DNA from: Escherichia coli
Lineage (GTDB): Bacteria; Pseudomonadota; Gammaproteobacteria; Enterobacterales; Enterobacteriaceae
Assembly (NCBI RefSeq): GCF_003334815.1
Contig: NZ_QOWO01000021.1
Direction: 5' to 3' (one strand)
Length of the DNA stretch: 64,000 nt
The notes under the pieces were generated by a model. That model was not told where the DNA came from, searched no databases, and saw only the letters and a program-made list of their open reading frames with translations. Position 1 is the stretch's first letter. Each line of letters begins with the position of its first letter. Below, piece after piece: positions 1-7,957 of this stretch. Both the position numbers and the translations under genes were made by a program.

Positions 1-2
1 GC

Positions 3-140
3 TATGAATATCTGCTGGAGAAGTACAGCTCGCTGGAATCCATTCATACTGAGATTGGCACCAACGAACTTGGCGAGCTGGAAGAGCAAAAAATCTTTAC
101 CGGCGATCTGCTGACACCGTGGCGTAACAGGCGATATTGA
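3..140 (+). CDS. 3' end of an uncharacterized upstream gene (C-terminal 45 codons, truncated by window edge)
   Basis: Open frame from window start to a TGA at 138-140 (translation ...YEYLLEKYSSLESIHTEIGTNELGELEEQKIFTGDLLTPWRNRRY); co-directional with and 67 nt upstream of the helicase gene; frame choice not certain. Confidence 0.35.
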   Translation, partial: YEYLLEKYSSLESIHTEIGTNELGELEEQKIFTGDLLTPWRNRRY

Positions 141-207
141 TAGCGACGCCCTCTTCTCTAAGTTAAGTCAGCAGGCTTTTTCAGGACATCTTAAGAGGTA
201 AGTACAT

Positions 208-3200
208 ATGGACTTATTTGACCTGTTAACAATTAAATTTACCTTGCCCGCGAAAGCTGCCCCTGTAAGAAAAGTGGGTGGGAATTATGTTCATAAATTA
301 CTTTGCCGATCAACAACAGTATTGGCTCAAGTCAGAAATGCACGTTTCCAAGGATATTTTGAACTTGTTACGGGTCTAAAGCCCCCTCTGGACTATGTCT
401 ATCTGAAAGATCCAAATTCCAGGGGTAAATGCGCAGATGGTGTAGCTTCCCTTAAAGCTAAGGAACCATTTACATTCGAAAAATGGCGAGAAGATACTGA
501 GTTAAGCTGGGAGCAATTTCCAGAGCAGGTAATTAGCACTTCACCTAATGAAATTAATGAACAATGGCATCATCAATTTCAGTTTAGAGAGGACGATCCA
601 GAGCGCAATTCTCCCGGTCTCAGAAAACCCCAACTGGGTGCACTTCATGCAATTGCAGGCTATTTCGCCACTGATTTGCAGGTAGAACCTGCTACCGTCG
701 TACTGCCCACTGGAACGGGAAAAACGGAAACAATGCTGGCTACCATGATATACCAGCGATGCGAGCGAATTTTGCTCATAGTCCCATCTGACTCTCTCCG
801 AACACAGATATCCAAAAAGTTCATCGATTTAGGATATTTGCCAGAGCTAACAGTCGTTCCACCCAACATTGCACTTCCTAATGTCGCCATTATTAAGAAA
901 GGAATTCAGGTAGCGGAAGAAGCTAAGCAATTAGCTTGTGAATCAAACGTCTTGGTTGCTACGACCAGCGTTTTGTCTGCCTGCTCCGAAACAGCATTAA
1001 ATGCACTTTGCGAGTTGTGTAGCCATCTTTTTGTTGATGAGGCTCATCATATCTCAGCCTCATCATGGCAGACAATTCGCAAACGATTTAAAAACAAACG
1101 TGTAGTGCAGTTTACAGCTACCCCTTTTAGGAATGATAAAAAGTCCCTTGGTGGGAAAATTATCTATAACTACACGATGGGGGAAGCCCAACGAGCAGGC
1201 TATTTTACAAATGTAAATTTGCTGCCTGTAGAAGAGTATTACTCTGACCTTATGGATCACGCAATCGCAGATAAAGCTGTTGGCCAACTGCGTATAGACT
1301 TAAATAATGGCCTTGATCATTTGCTTATGGCCCGTACTAGCAATAAGCAGCGAGCAGAAGAAATACTGACTATTTATCAGAATATTGTACCGAACTTTAA
1401 TCCAATCGTTATTCATTCTGATTATCCTAAAACGGAAATAAAAAAACGTCTTAATAAATTATTATCAAGACAATCAAGAATCGTTATTTGCGTAGACATG
1501 TTGGGAGAAGGCTATGACCTACCCAACCTGAAAATTGCCGCTTTGCATGATCACCATAAGTCTCTTGCAGTAACTTTGCAGTTTATTGGCCGTTTTACTC
1601 GTGTCAATAAAGCACAGAAAATTGGTCAAGCTAGTGTAGTCATGAATGTTGCAGACCCTAATGTTGAAGGTGAATTACAGCATCTATATTCAACAGATGC
1701 CGATTGGGATAACGTATTAAGGCGACTCTCTGAAGGACGAATTGCTAGAGAGATTAGGTTGCAAGAGGTCGTGGATGCCTTAAAAAGGAAAGGTGATTTA
1801 CACGATCAGATCTCTCTCTGGAACCTTGAGCCAAGTTGTTCTGTCATGTTATTTAAAACATACTGTGACAATTGGGAGCCTGAAAGATACAAGGAAAAAC
1901 TGCCTAGATTCGATGAATCATGGCATGCAATAGCAGAAGATGAGAATTTGCTTGTTGTGCTAGCTGTCCAGACAACTTCAGTCCGGTGGGGAAACTACAA
2001 AGATCTTAAAGATACCAATTATAAAATTCTAATTGCTCATTGGGATCAAAGCAGATCCGCCTTGTTTGTATTCTCAAATGACTATAAAGCATTCCGGGTT
2101 GAGAATCTGGTTAGTACTATTTGTGATGATAAATTTGAAATTGTCAGTGGTGAAAAAGTTTTTAATGTATTTAATGGTATTGAATATCCTTTAGCAAGAA
2201 ATTTAGGCGCATCCCAAATTGGAGCAATAAGCTTTACTCAATATTTTGGCCCAAATGTCACTGAGGGGCTATCACTAATTGAAGCGTCTCAATCAAGCTT
2301 AAGCAATATTGCTGCATTAGGTTATGAATCCGGAAACCGTGTAATCTGGGGATGCTCGCAACGCAGAGGTAAGGTCTGGTCACCACAAAAAGGGGGTAGC
2401 ATTGCTGATTGGTGCAACTGGGTTAAGAAAACTTGGGACAAAATCTTTAGTTCTGAACCAGATCCAAACAACCTTACGCGTAACTTTTTGCGTCCTGTCC
2501 CATTACTCGAACCCTATAATGAATATCCAATATCAGCTCAATGGGGTGAGTATTTGCTTACTACGTTCGAAGATAAAGTTATTTTTCATTTTGATGCTAT
2601 ATCAGCTCACTTATATTTAGTAGATGTGAAGACTGCTGGAAAGTTTGACGATGGCAATGTGCGGCTCATTTTTTCTACAGATGAAACTTCATCTGAATAT
2701 AAATTATGTCTTACAGGTAGTACTACAGCAAAAGGTTATGCCTATCAGTTGATTTCTGGCCCTGAAGTCTTTGTACAGCGAGGTGAATCTGAACCTGTAT
2801 CACTATCAGAATATATGGAAATTGATCCAGTAATGATTCATTACTCCGATGGCTCATTTTCTTACAACGCTCATATAGTTCATGTAAGCCCAAATATTGG
2901 CCTTTATGACAAAGACGAAATTGTAGCTTTTGATTGGAATGGAACTGATGTTCGACTGGAATCAATGGGCTATACTCGTGATCCATCATCCATCCAGTGG
3001 CGTTGGTACAGTGAAATTAAAGATAATTACGATGTTATTATTAATGACGACGGTAAAGGTGAGTCAGCTGATTTAGTTGGGTTAAGAATAGTTGATGACT
3101 GTATTGTTCTCTCTTTAATTCATTGCAAGTATTCAGGCTCAGAAGAAGCTGGAGCAAGACTTAAAGATCTTTACGAAGTATGTGGGCAGGCACAGAGATG

Positions 3201-3489
3201 CATTCGTTGGAAGCACCTGAATCTTTCCTATTTATACCACCACATTAAGCGGCGCGAGGAACAGTGGCGATCGCTTGGTCATTCTCGCTTTCTAAAAGGC
3301 ACTATAAAAGACCTTGCAGCTATGAAAGAGCGCTCCAGAATCACACCTCTTAAATTCCAAGTTGTTATTGTTCAACCAGGACTTAGAGTAAACAAAATTA
3401 ATGAAGAAGGCCTTAAGTTACTTGGCAGTACGGCCTTATTTATCAAGAAAACAACGATGGCAGACTTAGTTGTTATTGGTTCTAAATAG
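208..3489 (+). CDS. SF2 (ResIII/DEAD-DEAH type) helicase-family ATPase with long uncharacterized C-terminal region (1093 aa)
   Basis: ATG at 208 preceded by AAGAGG at 193-198; Walker A GTGKT (nt 712-726), DEAHH (nt 1036-1050), TATP motif III, QFIGRFTR motif VI (nt 1579-1602); residues ~470-1093 unassigned; AT-rich codon usage. Confidence 0.85.
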   Translation: MDLFDLLTIKFTLPAKAAPVRKVGGNYVHKLLCRSTTVLAQVRNARFQGYFELVTGLKPPLDYVYLKDPNSRGKCADGVASLKAKEPFTFEKWREDTELSWEQFPEQVISTSPNEINEQWHHQFQFREDDPERNSPGLRKPQLGALHAIAGYFATDLQVEPATVVLPTGTGKTETMLATMIYQRCERILLIVPSDSLRTQISKKFIDLGYLPELTVVPPNIALPNVAIIKKGIQVAEEAKQLACESNVLVATTSVLSACSETALNALCELCSHLFVDEAHHISASSWQTIRKRFKNKRVVQFTATPFRNDKKSLGGKIIYNYTMGEAQRAGYFTNVNLLPVEEYYSDLMDHAIADKAVGQLRIDLNNGLDHLLMARTSNKQRAEEILTIYQNIVPNFNPIVIHSDYPKTEIKKRLNKLLSRQSRIVICVDMLGEGYDLPNLKIAALHDHHKSLAVTLQFIGRFTRVNKAQKIGQASVVMNVADPNVEGELQHLYSTDADWDNVLRRLSEGRIAREIRLQEVVDALKRKGDLHDQISLWNLEPSCSVMLFKTYCDNWEPERYKEKLPRFDESWHAIAEDENLLVVLAVQTTSVRWGNYKDLKDTNYKILIAHWDQSRSALFVFSNDYKAFRVENLVSTICDDKFEIVSGEKVFNVFNGIEYPLARNLGASQIGAISFTQYFGPNVTEGLSLIEASQSSLSNIAALGYESGNRVIWGCSQRRGKVWSPQKGGSIADWCNWVKKTWDKIFSSEPDPNNLTRNFLRPVPLLEPYNEYPISAQWGEYLLTTFEDKVIFHFDAISAHLYLVDVKTAGKFDDGNVRLIFSTDETSSEYKLCLTGSTTAKGYAYQLISGPEVFVQRGESEPVSLSEYMEIDPVMIHYSDGSFSYNAHIVHVSPNIGLYDKDEIVAFDWNGTDVRLESMGYTRDPSSIQWRWYSEIKDNYDVIINDDGKGESADLVGLRIVDDCIVLSLIHCKYSGSEEAGARLKDLYEVCGQAQRCIRWKHLNLSYLYHHIKRREEQWRSLGHSRFLKGTIKDLAAMKERSRITPLKFQVVIVQPGLRVNKINEEGLKLLGSTALFIKKTTMADLVVIGSK

Positions 3490-3584
3490 GACGAAAAATT
3501 GATAATATTCGATTTTAGTAATATTAAATAACGAATTGAATATGCTATAAAAATGATGGAAAAAGCAAGAAAAGAGAGTAAATT

Positions 3585-4907
3585 ATGATCCTATTCTTTT
3601 ATCCCTACATAATGCTTTGCTATAGCGCTGGATACGCTTTATTGCAAACACTGGATGGGATGGGTGTGATTAGTACCAACTTTGTAGAAATGAACGCACA
3701 GGGTGCTCTTTTGAGCAGTTACTGGTCTCCCAATAAAGTTGCTGTAGTCTTAGGAGGATGTTTTCTTGAGCTCTTTATTTTATTATTACCTTTTGTTTTC
3801 TTGAGCTCATGGATACTTGCCAGAAAAAAGGGACTCATCATTTGTTTTGTTCTTCTTATAACCCCTGGCCTATTATCGCTCTGTCACCTTCTTCCTGCTA
3901 TCCAGTGGTTGCCATTGACCTATGAAATAGGAGGTACAGGTGCAACAGGTAACGCAGCTGGACTCGGAAGTCTTAGCTTCATAGGGCTATTGAGTGGTTG
4001 GATTTTGGCAGTAATCATTAGTGATATTTTTGCTACAGGAGAGAAATTCAGACAGTGGACAGATATTTTCCTAATACTGACAGCAGTTGGAAACGGTCTT
4101 TTCTGGGTATCAGACAGAGAGGTGGCTGTCGGTAAAACCGCATATGAGAAAACAATTACGGATATTAATGATGCAGCCAAATACCTTCTTTTTCAGGTGA
4201 AAGACTACAGCCGCATGTGTGACAATAACGGGCTTACCGAAATGTCATCTTGTCAGTGGGCATCGTACATTCAAGAAACGCTAGAAAATATTGCCAGTAC
4301 AAAATCATCTGTTATTGAATATGTAATACCTGAAAATCTTGACACCTTCTACCGAATTCCTGAGTACTATAGCAATCAAGTATCTCCAGATAAAATCAGA
4401 CAGGAATTTCAAGACTTCAATAAAAAACTATGCCCAAATAAATCTCTTTCCAAAACAATAACACAATTGCCATCACCTTCTCGATGGTGCCAGACCCCAC
4501 CCCCAGCTTACTGCAATGCCATTCAAGAGGGAAAATATAAAACAGGCATGTCAGACCGTTTCGCTGTCGCCAATGAGTGTGTAACTACATCATTATTAAG
4601 GTACCGCCAAGTTTTATTAAAAGAACAAGCTCGTTTATCCTTAAGTAAAAATGCCCCTCATTATAGATGGATGTGGTTTATTGCTATGTCTTTTTTTATT
4701 GGAGGGAAAATTGCCAATGTAATGACAAAAATAGGTAATGTAGAGAATCGTCTCATAACTGAGAAACATAGAGTTAAATTCATCCTTCTAAAAACATGTG
4801 GTTTTATTGTGCGTACATTAATAAGATGTGCCATCTTATTTCGGAAAGTGTTTTTTTCAACGATCAATTATATCAAAAGATTGAAGAAAATAAAGCATGA
4901 TACTTAA
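3585..4907 (+). CDS. Putative polytopic membrane protein, function unknown (440 aa; start codon uncertain)
   Basis: 1.3 kb ORF in AT-rich DNA; N-terminal half has several hydrophobic helix-length segments, one more near C-terminus; 95 nt downstream of helicase gene, same strand. Confidence 0.55.
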   Translation: MILFFYPYIMLCYSAGYALLQTLDGMGVISTNFVEMNAQGALLSSYWSPNKVAVVLGGCFLELFILLLPFVFLSSWILARKKGLIICFVLLITPGLLSLCHLLPAIQWLPLTYEIGGTGATGNAAGLGSLSFIGLLSGWILAVIISDIFATGEKFRQWTDIFLILTAVGNGLFWVSDREVAVGKTAYEKTITDINDAAKYLLFQVKDYSRMCDNNGLTEMSSCQWASYIQETLENIASTKSSVIEYVIPENLDTFYRIPEYYSNQVSPDKIRQEFQDFNKKLCPNKSLSKTITQLPSPSRWCQTPPPAYCNAIQEGKYKTGMSDRFAVANECVTTSLLRYRQVLLKEQARLSLSKNAPHYRWMWFIAMSFFIGGKIANVMTKIGNVENRLITEKHRVKFILLKTCGFIVRTLIRCAILFRKVFFSTINYIKRLKKIKHDT

Positions 4908-5425
4908 ATAGAATAGTGACAAACACTCAATTGCAAGGTCATTCTTTGTGTTGAATGAATAAAGAACAAGGGGTACTTTCTCCTGTACCCTTGGAGTTTA
5001 TATTAGATAATACATCTGAATCTACTCTGGTGATTCACACTAGCGGCAATAGTGTTTTGTACTCAACCGTTTATACAATAGCATCCATGACTAATTGAGC
5101 GTAGAGTTCAGTAAGCTTATTAATTATCCACTTATTGAAAGAATTCGTGGAACGCTCTTACCGATAAAATCAGTGAATGTATTGCTCTTGGTGATAATGC
5201 CATTGGGAAAAATTACCAACCAGCCATCCCATTAAGGCTAGCCGATTAACTTTAATTGAATCGCCACGGATTTGGCAAACAATTCACATGTCTCTACTAC
5301 GCTTGATTTTTTCGTAGTATAACAGCGTAACCCTTTTTCTCCCGGTTTACATACAAGAAACCTGTTCATCATTGCTGATGAAGATATATGCTGCCCTTAC
5401 ACGATAATTGTTTAGGATAGTAACA

Positions 5426-6391
5426 ATGCCTTTAGATTTAAGTAACACTTTAGTGATTGGCATCAGCGCGACTGCGCTTTTTGATATGAGTGAATCCGAT
5501 CGCATGTTTTGCGAAACCTATGCGACCGATCCTGATAGCGCCATTGAAAAATACCGCGCCTATATGCTGGAGCACGAAAACCAACCTTTACAGCCCGGAA
5601 CAGGCTACCCTTTAGTCAAAGCGTTGCTGGGTCTGAACCAGTACCGTCAACCGGATGATAAATCACCGTTGGTTGAAGTCGTTGTGATGTCACGTAACAG
5701 CCCTGATACAGGTATCCGCGTTCTGAATACTATTCGCCATGACAGGCTCGATATCACGCGCTCTGCCTTTACAGCAGGCGAAACTGTTGCTGATTACCTT
5801 GATGCCTTTGATGTGGATCTGTTTTTAACAACTAACGTTGAAGATGCGCAAAAGGTGATTGATTCCCGATTCTGCGCCGCTGCAATCCTGAAAGATCCGC
5901 CTTCTGACGCATCTGATATCCCGGAAGGGCAAGTGCGCATTGCTTTTGACGGCGACGCGGTACTTTTTTCCGATCAAAGCGAACTGGTTTATAAGACCCA
6001 AGGAATGGTTGCCTTTCATGCTCAGGAAGACGCGCAGCAGGATATCCCTATGGAAGAGGGGCCTTATGCCACTTTGCTAAAAAAAATAGCCAAGCTTCAG
6101 GAACGATTGCCGACCCGCGTTGAGTATTCTCCTGTTCGTATTGCATTGGTGACAGCCCGAAATAGCCCTTCGGAAATGCGCGTTATTAAAACGCTAAGAA
6201 GCTGGGGGGTATATGTCGATGAAGCTTTTTTTCTTGGCGGCGTAGAGAAAACAAAAGTTCTGAAGGCATTTAAACCACACATTTTCTTCGACGATCAGGA
6301 TGTGCATTTAAATACAGCTGCAAAGGTTGTACCTTCCGGGAAAGTACCTTATGCCAGTAACTCCGAACTGGCAGAGCGTGAAGCATCGTAA
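5426..6391 (+). CDS. HAD-like 5'-nucleotidase-family protein (putative)
   Basis: ORF with AGGA 8 nt upstream of ATG 5426; two internally similar halves each with an Asp-rich segment (LFDMSESD and IAFDGDAVLF) and C-terminal FFDDQD resembling HAD phosphatase motifs; family assignment from recollection. Confidence 0.65.
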   Translation: MPLDLSNTLVIGISATALFDMSESDRMFCETYATDPDSAIEKYRAYMLEHENQPLQPGTGYPLVKALLGLNQYRQPDDKSPLVEVVVMSRNSPDTGIRVLNTIRHDRLDITRSAFTAGETVADYLDAFDVDLFLTTNVEDAQKVIDSRFCAAAILKDPPSDASDIPEGQVRIAFDGDAVLFSDQSELVYKTQGMVAFHAQEDAQQDIPMEEGPYATLLKKIAKLQERLPTRVEYSPVRIALVTARNSPSEMRVIKTLRSWGVYVDEAFFLGGVEKTKVLKAFKPHIFFDDQDVHLNTAAKVVPSGKVPYASNSELAEREAS

Positions 6392-6582: not shown

Positions 6583-7344
6583 TCACTGTACCACTCCACC
6601 ATCATTTACCGCACCGGAAACTACCACACGCATATTTTCATCCAGGTCAATCGAACCGCGATCAAACGCTTTATGATGGATTGCGCACAATGCCAGGCCA
6701 TTAGGTACTTCACAAGGGCCATGGTGCTGTTTCCATCTGATATGAGCAGCTTCCAGAGCAATCGGCGCATTGTCGTGGCGCATGTTAAAGCCGCAGATAG
6801 CGCACTGATAATTGTAAGCATGTAGCACCATCTGGCGAAACTTCGGATCGCGTTGACGAAGAGAGGTGCGAATATCAAAACTCCTCTCGTCAGCTATCTC
6901 TTCCTGAATACTGGCCGGGAAATGCGCCTCCAGGAGCTGCTGCGCCAGCGTATCAATTAACCTGTAATTTTTTTCCACCAACGCAAAATTATCGGCATCA
7001 AATCCACCAGCGACATTATATTCAATGAGTTCACGTCGGGGCGGCTGGCGGCTACCACTGGTTGAGCACAGTTCCGCGTTATGTAGTTCCCAGAAGCCAT
7101 CGCCCTTCAGACGCCAGAACGGCATGTCCGGGCGCTGGTCACGGCGCTGCGGTCCATAACGTTCCAGGAGATCCAACAGGGGCTCGTAGATTTCAGAAGC
7201 ATAGTTAAACAGGCGACCATGACTCTGCCGATAGTGTGAGAGAACGTACAGCAGCAATAATGGCTTATGTGGCGCACGTTGTTCACCTTTGCGCCAGATG
7301 GTGATATTTGATATCGCTTGCTTTAGGGTTTTGTCAGAGGTCAT
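6583..7344 (-). CDS. HNH endonuclease-family protein with uncharacterized N-terminal domain
   Basis: C-terminal HNH signature (YQCAICGF ... AAHIRWKQHHG ... NGLALCAIHHKAFDRG); start could be ATG 7344 or upstream TTG 7389. Confidence 0.75.
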   Translation of the reverse strand: MTSDKTLKQAISNITIWRKGEQRAPHKPLLLLYVLSHYRQSHGRLFNYASEIYEPLLDLLERYGPQRRDQRPDMPFWRLKGDGFWELHNAELCSTSGSRQPPRRELIEYNVAGGFDADNFALVEKNYRLIDTLAQQLLEAHFPASIQEEIADERSFDIRTSLRQRDPKFRQMVLHAYNYQCAICGFNMRHDNAPIALEAAHIRWKQHHGPCEVPNGLALCAIHHKAFDRGSIDLDENMRVVVSGAVNDGGVVQ

Positions 7345-7463
7345 TGCGTTGAAGAATCCATGAGCATATGTTTGCGATGATGCTCGCAACTATATGTATA
7401 TTCAAGGCATTATTGCAGACATCCTTTTTGCCTGACGGCTCTGTACCTGGCAGATGGAATTCT

Positions 7464-7549: not shown

Positions 7550-7780
7550 TCACTCGCCATTACCCCGATTGATCTTCGCATAGTCAAACGGCGTAATCGC
7601 TCTTTCCCGATTGGCATCCAGAAAATCGACCCACCACTGCAACATCAGCTTACGCTCATCCAGATATTCCGCTTTATGGATTATACGCGGCCTGCACTGA
7701 GTTACGTCCATGTGGCTCATCTGACGTTCAGCCGCTTTATCTCGTGCTGTTTTGGTCTCAATACTTCCATGCCGTTGCAA
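7550..7780 (-). pseudogene. Remnant of a P4-type tyrosine integrase (C-terminal ~70 codons only)
   Basis: Translation aligns to the C-terminus of the intact integrase at 10668-11933 (about 37 of 58 residues identical by manual alignment, e.g. IHKAE.L.ER.LMLQWW.DFLDANRER); N-terminal catalytic body absent. Confidence 0.7.
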
Positions 7781-7957
7781 TTACCTCTTAAACCATTCCT
7801 TACCATTTTCATGTCTTCGATAAGAAATCTTCATCATGCATGATCGATTTTGTCTATCTATTCGATCGAATTTTTTCTTTTTACCCTGTCTTTTGCATGG
7901 TTTTAAAATAAGCAACCTTCTTTATCGGGTGGGTAAGAACCAACGGAGATGATTGAA

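What the first reader, a model, noticed from the sequence alone, without database searches (positions are those of the whole stretch)
3585..4907. Polytopic membrane protein directly downstream of the helicase
Uninterrupted 1.3-kb ORF in AT-rich DNA (where stops are frequent by chance), same strand as the helicase. The N-terminal ~170 residues contain at least four hydrophobic segments (e.g. VAVVLGGCFLELFILLLPFVFLSSWIL, LIICFVLLITPGLLSLCHLL, LSFIGLLSGWILAVIISDIF, IFLILTAVGNGLFWV), then a ~200-residue polar region, then another hydrophobic segment (WMWFIAMSFFIGGKIA). Membrane partners of cytosolic NTPases are a recurring theme in abortive-infection type defence. The true start codon is uncertain, since several in-frame Met codons occur in the first 40 codons.
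Basis: partly seen in the sequence, partly recalled or inferred. Interest (0 to 1): 0.6.

Follow-up and report, generated by a model that had tools for sequence, protein, structure and literature searches.

The report
Orphan membrane protein, not a helicase partner
The ORF is a real, conserved six-helix inner-membrane protein with a disulfide-braced periplasmic domain; it belongs to an uncharacterised family that turns up alone among varied anti-phage genes, so it is probably a stand-alone envelope-level protection gene rather than the helicase's partner.

Summary
Window 3585-4907 (+) is a 440-codon gene under purifying selection (dN/dS 0.15-0.18). Its product is a polytopic membrane protein. 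The start is settled as ATG 3585: residues 1-20 are conserved family-wide, whereas PGAP's TTG 3642 start removes them.

The interpretation as the helicase's membrane partner is not supported. The two genes are adjacent only in one recently spread Enterobacterales island (hsdRMS-helicase-ORF-integrase). In 11 other contexts the ORF's homologues have no helicase neighbour. They sit beside CBASS, IetAS, SIR2-HerA, a retron and other defence genes, and four have a divergently transcribed gene upstream. The helicase family is far larger. Three homologues outside the island were sampled and none has this ORF. Two follow hsdRMS, with other modules in the downstream slot. One is solitary.

The family has 154 clusters at 50% identity, in Proteobacteria where named. 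It has no Pfam, NCBIfam, PADLOC or PHROG match, no phage copy and no specific fold match, despite a confident model (pLDDT 93). Inferred anatomy:
- six TM helices;
- a roughly 180-residue periplasmic helical bundle with four invariant cysteines;
- a cationic amphipathic C-terminal helix.

Best reading, 0.45: an autonomous envelope-acting defence or exclusion gene. The mechanism is inferred, not shown.

The parts
3585..4907 (+). Coding sequence of the 440-aa membrane protein, stop codon included. ATG 3585 is the true start.
   Evidence: ORF. In-frame TAA at 3579 and start candidates. The N-terminal 20 residues are conserved in homologues down to 47% identity and across the 58-sequence family alignment. 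dN/dS is 0.15-0.18. AF2 model has pLDDT 93.2 and pTM 0.81.
3490..3584 (+). 95-bp AT-rich gap between the helicase stop and the ORF start, with a GAGAG Shine-Dalgarno-like motif ending 6 nt before the ATG. No consensus terminator or promoter was found.
   Evidence: Sequence; scan. By eye there is a weak TTGATA-17-TATTAA candidate promoter, untested. In Morganella, homology to this locus begins only 11 bp upstream of the ATG, so the upstream region is not part of the conserved module.
3588..3662 (+). TM0 (residues 2-26), inferred to run from cytoplasm to periplasm. It carries the family motif F4, P7, Y8, Q21.
   Evidence: AF2 helix 2-26, hydropathy, conservation 84-96%. The orientation is inferred.
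3738..3896 (+). TM1 (residues 52-78) and TM2 (84-104), a helical hairpin joined by the cytoplasmic ARKKG turn. P94 is invariant and G95 is 96% conserved.
   Evidence: Kyte-Doolittle maxima of 2.51 and 2.39. AF2 gives one helix, 49-99. Conservation. The RKK loop is placed inside by the positive-inside rule, which is an inference.
3954..4112 (+). TM3 (residues 124-149, W139 invariant), the short cytoplasmic loop TGEKFRQWTD (invariant among close homologues), and TM4 (160-176, D160 94% conserved).
   Evidence: Hydropathy, AF2 helices 124-149 and 152-214, conservation.
4113..4664 (+). Periplasmic domain (residues 177-360). It is a helical bundle built on extensions of TM4 and TM5, plus a Cys/Pro-rich loop. 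C212, C223, C283 and C302 are invariant; C310 and C332 are 79% conserved.
4665..4733 (+). TM5 (residues 361-383), running from periplasm to cytoplasm. W362, G373 and K375 are 93-98% conserved.
   Evidence: AF2 helix 330-383; conservation.
4770..4901 (+). C-terminal cationic amphipathic helix (residues 396-439), cytoplasmic. Its sequence varies, but the basic character is kept across the family.

Best explanation
The ORF encodes an autonomous inner-membrane protein of an uncharacterised family, found in Proteobacteria wherever a source organism is named. It is a discrete, horizontally shuffled single-gene module that lands in the variable cargo of defence islands, ICEs and Tn7-like elements. 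It is not a dedicated subunit of the adjacent helicase.

Inferred architecture:
- N-terminus in the cytoplasm, then six TM helices.
- A projecting periplasmic helical bundle of about 180 residues, braced by two to three disulfides.
- A cytoplasmic cationic amphipathic helix of about 45 residues, with no other cytoplasmic domain.

Most likely function, inferred by guilt by association and anatomy: protection against phage or other invading DNA at the envelope. The periplasmic bundle would detect or bind something that happens at the periplasm or inner membrane during infection, such as tail-tip or ejection-protein insertion, or membrane perturbation. The TM bundle and C-terminal amphipathic helix would then either depolarise the membrane (abortive infection) or obstruct genome entry.

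Shown here: gene reality, start codon, family extent, lack of a conserved partner, defence-island context and a confident fold.

Inferred, not shown: topology, disulfides, the defence role, and which of the two envelope mechanisms applies.
For: The gene is real and selected.

The family has 154 representatives at 50% identity, about 55 of them full length at 380-500 aa. Four cysteines, P94 and W139 are invariant.

The model is confident and is reproduced by AFDB family members at TM-score 0.8-0.9.

There is no conserved neighbour. The contexts are:
- type I R-M plus helicase;
- PT-dependent HNH, a retron RT, a HipA-like gene and PDC-S11 in Morganella;
- an integrase and CBASS in Serratia;
- Metallophos plus HATPase_c_3;
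- a NEL-like gene and HipBA;
- HNH plus IetAS in an ICE;
- type II CBASS plus PDC-S06;
- a GTPase conflict operon;
- a small Phage_GPA replicon;
- Tn7-like cargo with SIR2-HerA;
- a ubiquitin-like system in Robbsia.

Four contexts have a divergently transcribed gene upstream, so the ORF must be expressed on its own there.

In Morganella, homology to the E. coli locus starts 11 bp before the ATG and ends about 107 bp after the stop, so the gene moves as a discrete unit.

Synonymous divergence between E. coli and Lonsdalea is 0.40 for the ORF but 0.19 for the adjacent helicase. The two genes therefore have separate histories even where they are adjacent.

The slot downstream of the helicase holds other modules elsewhere: AAA_15 plus a 308-aa partner in Pectobacterium, and bpMoxR plus VWA in Vibrio.

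The gene is not phage-borne.
Against: There is no experimental or homology-based link to any known defence protein: PADLOC, NCBIfam, Pfam and PHROGs all returned nothing.

The defence role rests on neighbourhood alone, from about a dozen contexts and without a formal background control. Two or three of those contexts show no recognised defence gene.

In E. coli the gene is always next to the helicase, with no terminator found between them, so co-transcription and a local functional link are not excluded.

Two of 15 E. coli copies are broken and two have altered 3' ends. Other loci also carry truncated or split copies (Salmonella arizonae, Klebsiella strain 176). This fits a dispensable or costly gene.

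Topology was not predicted with a dedicated tool. No model coordinates were available to check disulfide geometry or pore features.
Confidence: 0.45

Rival explanations
1. One reading: the protein is the dedicated membrane partner, as effector or sensor, of the upstream 1093-aa helicase, and the two form a two-gene abortive-infection system.
For: The ORF is on the same strand across a 95-bp gap with no predicted terminator. The two genes are adjacent in all 15 E. coli genomes that carry either and in Escherichia sp., Lonsdalea and Klebsiella. Pairings of a membrane component with a cytosolic partner exist in Zorya and Kiwa (abstracts of 10.1101/2023.12.18.572097 and PMC11785009).
Against: All co-occurrences belong to one near-identical island lineage, with hsdR 97-98% identical. 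None of 11 other contexts of the membrane family has this helicase. The helicase family has more than 7000 clusters, against 154 representatives for the membrane family. Three sampled helicase homologues lack the ORF when searched with a family HMM. dS differs twofold between the two genes. In the Morganella copy, homology to the E. coli locus starts only 11 bp upstream of the ATG and no helicase is present.
Confidence: 0.1
2. The protein is a promiscuous membrane module. It acts as a generic envelope sensor or anchor that works with whichever cytosolic nuclease or NTPase is encoded just upstream: the helicase here, and HNH, Metallophos plus GHKL ATPase, or a NEL-like protein elsewhere.
For: In six of eleven contexts the upstream gene is on the same strand within about 95-430 bp. 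It encodes a nuclease, phosphoesterase or NTPase in four of these and a NEL-like protein in a fifth. The only cytoplasmic feature, the variable basic C-terminal helix, could be a docking element. That tail is where close homologues differ most.
Against: Four contexts have a divergent gene upstream. Same-strand neighbours in about half of cases is what random orientation gives. The upstream genes share no domain. Some are recognised self-sufficient systems, such as HNH restriction enzymes. No fusion of the family to a cytosolic domain was found.
Confidence: 0.15
3. The protein is not anti-phage. It is an envelope cargo gene of mobile elements with another role, for example immunity against a membrane- or periplasm-acting bacteriocin, CDI or T6SS toxin, entry exclusion of conjugative elements, or an envelope fitness factor.
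For: The window's island also carries orphan CDI toxin/immunity modules upstream. The Robbsia fragment lies near a T6SS Tae4/PAAR pair. Some copies sit in ICEs. One AFDB family member carries a UniProt TraG_N label. The gene decays in some strains.
Against: No toxin gene is consistently adjacent across contexts. The TraG_N relation fails direct tests: 0 of 58 members match Pfam TraG_N, and hhalign probability is 0.3%. The commonest recognisable neighbours are anti-phage systems.
Confidence: 0.2

Closest known systems
Kiwa KwaA (membrane sensor of the KwaA-KwaB defence supercomplex)
   Same: Both are small polytopic inner-membrane proteins encoded in defence islands. Kiwa is reported to sense membrane changes caused by phage infection and conjugation (PMC11785009, abstract). 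This is the same logic I infer here: the input arrives at the envelope.
   Different: There is no sequence match to any PADLOC model, which includes Kiwa. KwaA always comes with KwaB, whereas this family has no conserved partner. This protein also has a large periplasmic domain with invariant cysteines (inferred to be disulfide-braced) and a long basic C-terminal helix.
Zorya ZorAB with the cytosolic ZorC and ZorD components
   Same: It is a precedent for a membrane component coupled to soluble cytosolic components in phage defence (10.1101/2023.12.18.572097 and PMC11890865, abstracts). That ZorD is an SF2 helicase-nuclease is from my own knowledge.
   Different: ZorAB is a 5:2 MotAB-like complex (PMC11890865, abstract). 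There was no PADLOC match, and the one MotA/TolQ/ExbB-labelled AFDB match is not significant (E 2.1). The helicase link here is confined to one island lineage.
Prophage superinfection-exclusion membrane proteins (T4 Imm, P22 SieA, HK97 gp15; recalled from general knowledge)
   Same: They are solitary inner-membrane proteins that act without enzymatic domains, by blocking genome entry at the envelope. That is one of the two mechanisms I consider.
   Different: Those proteins are phage-encoded and small. This family was absent from 50,697 phage records, from IMG/VR in a scan for close relatives, from PHROGs and from BFVD structures. It rides on islands, ICEs and transposons instead.
Periplasmic helical-bundle sensor domains (chemoreceptor McpZ, TorS, PilJ) and disulfide-stapled four-helix bundles (pectin methylesterase inhibitors)
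   Different: Sequence identity is only 4-13%. No Pfam sensor-domain model matches. There is no kinase or MCP signalling output domain. At this level the similarity is generic to helical bundles.
TraG_N (PF07916), the polytopic conjugation protein of F-like and ICE T4SS
   Same: It has a similar size and is a polytopic inner-membrane protein of Proteobacteria. One AFDB family member carries this label in UniProt.
   Different: Membership was tested and rejected. No Pfam match was found in 58 members. Profile-profile probability against a 16-sequence TraG_N alignment is 0.3%. No genuine TraG_N proteins appear among the Foldseek hits.

Membership tests
   Adjacent only in one island lineage. The helicase is absent from 11 other membrane-family contexts. 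The membrane family is absent from the three sampled contexts of helicase homologues outside the island.
   The gap is 95 bp with no terminator or consensus promoter found, so co-transcription is possible. However, dS is 0.40 for the ORF against 0.19 for the helicase in the same pair of genomes.
Known defence-system proteins (PADLOC-DB 2.0.0, including Kiwa, Zorya, RexAB and TM effectors) | A significant match to a system HMM | tested here: not met
   0 families at E <= 0.01 for the ORF. The ORF's and helicase's protein accessions do not occur in the DefensePredictor supplement or in the full text of any searched paper.
TraG_N (PF07916) | Match to the Pfam model, or profile-profile similarity to bona fide TraG_N | tested here: not met
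   No TraG_N hit for the ORF or for any of 58 family members. hhalign of A2 against A4 gives probability 0.3%, E 0.2; against a single TraG_N sequence it gives 0.1%.
TraG_N (PF07916) | Encoded within a T4SS/conjugation gene cluster | tested here: not met
   The window and most other contexts have no adjacent tra genes. In Serratia a genuine TraG_N lies 5.5 kb away as a separate gene.
Phage superinfection-exclusion proteins | Encoded by phages or prophages | tested here: not met
   No tblastn hit in 50,697 phage records. No PHROG match for the ORF or three distant members. No IMG/VR locus in a scan for close relatives. No BFVD structural match at E <= 0.001.
Phage superinfection-exclusion proteins | Blocks genome entry without killing the cell | not testable with these tools
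   Needs infection assays: plating efficiency at low and high multiplicity of infection, and DNA-entry reporters.
Four-helix-bundle periplasmic sensor domains (4HB_MCP / TorS-like) | Structural and sequence similarity to the sensor bundle, plus a cytoplasmic signalling output | tested here: inconclusive
Polytopic inner-membrane protein with a periplasmic disulfide-bonded domain (architecture claim) | TM helices, a periplasmic location for residues 177-360, and disulfides | tested here: inconclusive
   Hydropathy and AF2 helices, invariant C212, C223, C283 and C302 and a basic C-tail in all 58 members all agree. No dedicated topology predictor, model coordinates or experiment was available.

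The most novel reading that the evidence does not exclude
A single polypeptide acts as both sensor and effector at the envelope. Its disulfide-braced periplasmic bundle recognises the phage genome-delivery apparatus, or the membrane lesion it makes, from the periplasmic side. Its TM bundle and cationic C-terminal helix then collapse the membrane potential or plug the entry channel. This would define a new family of stand-alone, partner-free envelope immunity proteins spread through Proteobacteria on mobile elements.
Probability: 0.2. Interest if true: 0.75.

Novelty: new variant of a known kind. Interest (0 to 1): 0.45.

Why it matters
If the family protects against phage, it would add a compact, partner-free module that reads infection from the periplasmic side. 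Very few defence proteins are known to do that. Kiwa and Zorya are multi-protein systems, and superinfection-exclusion proteins are phage-borne.

The protein is cheap to test:
- It is 440 aa, is predicted with high confidence, and occurs in E. coli.
- It has natural truncated alleles to use as controls.
- It has obvious mutational handles: four invariant cysteines, D160, K375 and the C-terminal helix.

The negative result is also useful. It shows that adjacency within one species, here 15 of 15 E. coli genomes, can be a single-lineage artefact. It also redirects attention to the helicase's more frequent neighbour, the type I R-M operon.

Tried and rejected
- **TraG_N lead.** One AFDB hit carried this label. 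It was rejected by Pfam scans of 58 members and by profile-profile comparison with a purpose-built TraG_N alignment.
- **Domain fusions.** Longer hits (P0215, P0218, P0091, P0107) carry only extra TM or low-complexity sequence, or are spurious.
- **Promoter and terminator scan of 3300-5500.** No + strand promoter or terminator was found near the gene.
- **Rfam scan of 3300-5500.** It returned only a sub-threshold match to a human lncRNA model, which is chance.
- **Literature.** Protein accessions are absent from full texts and from the DefensePredictor supplements. Keyword searches returned only Kiwa, Zorya and R-M papers. A Klebsiella 'type I-like R-M without HsdR' paper could not be tied to this locus.
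- **Scan of genome contigs with A1.** It returned only four loci, because the peptide patterns capture close relatives only.
- **Lipoprotein reading of the N-terminus.** Rejected: Cys12 is not conserved and there is no lipobox.
Full report
**1. The observation**

The window is an E. coli chromosomal island next to tRNA-Phe. ORF 3585-4907 (+) encodes 440 residues.
- At 38.1% GC the stop probability is 0.067 per codon, so 440 open codons have P of about 7e-14 by chance.
- dN/dS against the Morganella and Lonsdalea orthologues is 0.18 and 0.16.

The start codon can be settled.
- An in-frame TAA at 3579 makes ATG 3585 the first possible start.
- A GAGAG motif ends 6 nt upstream of that ATG.
- Residues 1-20 are conserved in homologues down to 47% identity and across a 58-member family alignment, where F4, P7, Y8 and Q21 are 84-96% conserved.
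- PGAP begins the gene at TTG 3642, which removes a conserved helix.

**2. Anatomy**

An AlphaFold2 model built on the 58-sequence alignment is confident, with mean pLDDT 93.2 and pTM 0.81. AFDB models of distant family members match it at TM-scores 0.8-0.9.

I combined its helices with hydropathy, the positive-inside rule and cysteine conservation. The inferred layout is:
- N-terminus in the cytoplasm.
- TM0, residues 2-26.
- A short periplasmic beta-hairpin, residues 32-47.
- TM1 (52-78) and TM2 (84-104), joined by a cytoplasmic ARKKG turn.
- A Gly-rich periplasmic loop.
- TM3, residues 124-149.
- A short cytoplasmic loop, TGEKFRQWTD.
- TM4, from residue 160, which continues as a long helix into the periplasm.
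- A periplasmic helical bundle plus a Cys/Pro-rich loop, residues 177-360.
- TM5, residues 361-383.
- A cytoplasmic 45-residue cationic amphipathic helix, residues 396-439, with hydrophobic moment up to 0.52.

Family-wide conservation is as follows.
- Invariant: P94, W139 and four cysteines (C212, C223, C283, C302).
- 79% conserved: C310 and C332.
- At least 93% conserved: D160, K375, G373, N279, W225, W362 and P306.

Invariant cysteines in a domain flanked by TM helices, in a family reported from Proteobacteria, argue for a disulfide-braced periplasmic domain. This is an inference. I had no dedicated topology predictor and no model coordinates.

**3. Family and resemblance to known families**

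The word-indexed search found only Enterobacterales relatives at 47% identity or more. The exhaustive profile search found 154 representatives at 50% identity, about 55 of them full length. AFDB names place them in Gamma-, Beta- and Alphaproteobacteria, all labelled uncharacterised.

No library or collection gave a match:
- No Pfam, NCBIfam, PADLOC or PHROG match.
- No PDB sequence relative.
- No copy in phage records, in an IMG/VR scan for close relatives, or in BFVD structures.

One AFDB member is labelled TraG_N, so I tested that link. No member matches the Pfam model. A profile-profile comparison with a 16-sequence TraG_N alignment gives 0.3% probability. The family is therefore an orphan.

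**4. Is it the helicase's partner?**

Within E. coli the two genes are always together. Fifteen of 5426 complete genomes carry the ORF, and the same fifteen carry the full-length helicase. The pair also occurs in Escherichia sp., Lonsdalea and Klebsiella.

These are all one island, hsdR-hsdM-hsdS-helicase-ORF-integrase-tRNA. Its hsdR is 97-98% identical between hosts, so this is a single recently spread lineage.

Outside that lineage the ORF's homologues have no helicase neighbour:

| Host or locus | Neighbouring genes |
|---|---|
| Morganella (ORF 90% identical) | PT-dependent HNH, a retron RT and a HipA-like gene (divergent) upstream; PDC-S11 and an integrase downstream |
| Serratia | An integrase (divergent) and a CBASS operon |
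| L004/L005 | Metallophos plus a GHKL ATPase |
| L006/L007 | A NEL-like gene and HipBA |
| L008/L009 (ICE) | An HNH enzyme and IetAS |
| L015 | Type II CBASS and PDC-S06 |
| L016 | A GTPase-centred conflict operon (divergent) |
| L017 | A small Phage_GPA replicon |
| L019 | Short 2.7-kb contig; neighbours uninformative |
| L020 | Tn7-like cargo with SIR2-HerA |
| Robbsia (gene fragment) | A ubiquitin-like system |

The gene also behaves as a discrete unit.
- In Morganella, homology to the E. coli locus begins 11 bp before the ATG and stops about 107 bp after the stop codon.
- Between E. coli and Lonsdalea, dS is 0.40 for the ORF but 0.19 for the adjacent helicase.

Seen from the helicase's side:
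- Its family has more than 7000 clusters spread across phyla.
- In Pectobacterium (84% identity) and Vibrio (53%) it again follows hsdRMS. The next slot there holds AAA_15 plus a 308-aa gene, or bpMoxR plus VWA.
- In Advenella (81%) it is solitary in Tn7-like cargo.
- A family HMM finds no membrane-family member in any of those loci.

In two of the three sampled contexts outside the island, the helicase follows a type I R-M operon. The ORF is one of several interchangeable occupants of the slot downstream of the helicase.

**5. Integrity**

By alignment the ORF is full length and ungapped in 11 of 15 E. coli genomes. ORF length was confirmed as 440 codons in the two of these I fetched, and as 440-447 codons in Escherichia sp., Lonsdalea and Morganella.
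- Copies are also truncated in Salmonella arizonae and split in Klebsiella strain 176.

In the window's own lineage the neighbours are decaying. There is an hsdR/hsdM remnant, and the 5'-nucleotidase and PT-dependent restriction genes are pseudogenes in sister strains. The helicase and the ORF remain intact.

**6. Most likely function**

Shown: this is an autonomous, mobile, single-gene membrane module with no conserved partner. It is repeatedly embedded among anti-phage systems, and at least seven of eleven informative contexts have a recognised defence system within about 6 kb.

Inferred: it protects against phage or other incoming DNA at the envelope. Its only sizeable, conserved soluble part faces the periplasm and resembles sensor bundles. 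Its only cytoplasmic element is a cationic amphipathic helix of the kind that binds or perturbs membranes.

I therefore favour a self-contained envelope sensor-effector. The output would be either membrane depolarisation (abortive infection) or obstruction of genome entry. I cannot discriminate between these two outputs with the tools at hand.

Rival readings and my confidence in each:
- Dedicated helicase partner: 0.10.
- Promiscuous module serving whichever cytosolic nuclease or NTPase lies upstream: 0.15.
- Non-defence envelope cargo, such as toxin immunity or entry exclusion: 0.20.

**7. Novelty and verdict**

The gene is real, and the membrane-protein description is right and can be extended. 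The helicase-partner interpretation is not supported beyond one island lineage.

The family is uncharacterised, and it is structurally and sequence-wise unlike any named family I could test. The general kind, a solitary membrane protein in defence islands, is known. Interest is moderate at 0.45: this is a clean, cheap experimental candidate, but its role rests on neighbourhood and anatomy only.

Noticed in passing
window 208-3489 (+): The 1093-aa helicase has an SF2 core at residues 138-470. Its C-terminal ~600 residues are uncharacterised and extremely conserved, with mean column identity of 70% across 11 homologues from several phyla. They contain an invariant NDDGxGExADLV...LxLxHxKxS motif (D947, D948, E952, D955, H972, K974) that looks like a PD-(D/E)xK nuclease site. 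The family has more than 7000 clusters and matches no PADLOC system. It forms a conserved block hsdR-hsdM-hsdS-helicase in E. coli, Lonsdalea, Pectobacterium and Vibrio, but is solitary in Advenella. This could be an unrecognised accessory to type I R-M, or a stand-alone defence gene.
   Followed up: partly
window 1-207, with L001 7173-8729: In the window's lineage the type I R-M operon upstream of the helicase is reduced to an hsdR C-terminal remnant and the first 245 codons of hsdM; hsdS is gone. The helicase and the membrane ORF stay intact.
   Followed up: partly
window 5408-6391 (+): A 327-aa gene that PGAP calls a 5'-nucleotidase matches the PADLOC candidate single-gene system PDC-S08 at E 1.7e-134. 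It is absent from the tRNA-Leu version of the island. It is frameshifted or carries an internal stop in three sister strains.
   Followed up: partly
window 6583-7389 (-): A phosphorothioated-DNA-binding HNH restriction endonuclease (NF045808, 381.6 bits). PGAP marks it as a pseudogene with an internal stop in sister strains. A 51%-identical intact copy lies in the Morganella island that also carries the membrane ORF.
   Followed up: no
window 7550-12206: The island is nested. An integrase remnant (7550-7780, -) marks the old island end. Next come a Tia-like outer-membrane protein (7949-8698), an EptA-like phosphoethanolamine transferase (8850-10349), an intact P4-type integrase (10668-11933, -) and tRNA-Phe (12131-12206, -).
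   Followed up: partly
window 3585-3641: RefSeq/PGAP annotates the membrane ORF from TTG 3642 (421 aa). This cuts off 19 residues that are conserved across the family and predicted at pLDDT about 96. Many database entries for this family are therefore N-terminally truncated.
   Followed up: yes
L021 10298-12867 and L024 10327-13384: The slot immediately downstream of the hsdRMS-linked helicase is a variable cargo site. It holds AAA_15/AAA_21 ATPase plus a 308-aa gene in Pectobacterium (PADLOC PDC-M55A/NsnB-like) and bpMoxR plus VWA in Vibrio.
   Followed up: partly
literature: PMC12456054: A Klebsiella pneumoniae study reports an active 'type I-like' R-M system with hsdM and hsdS but no recognisable HsdR. 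It would be worth checking whether a helicase-nuclease of the family seen here lies next to that hsdMS pair.
   Followed up: no
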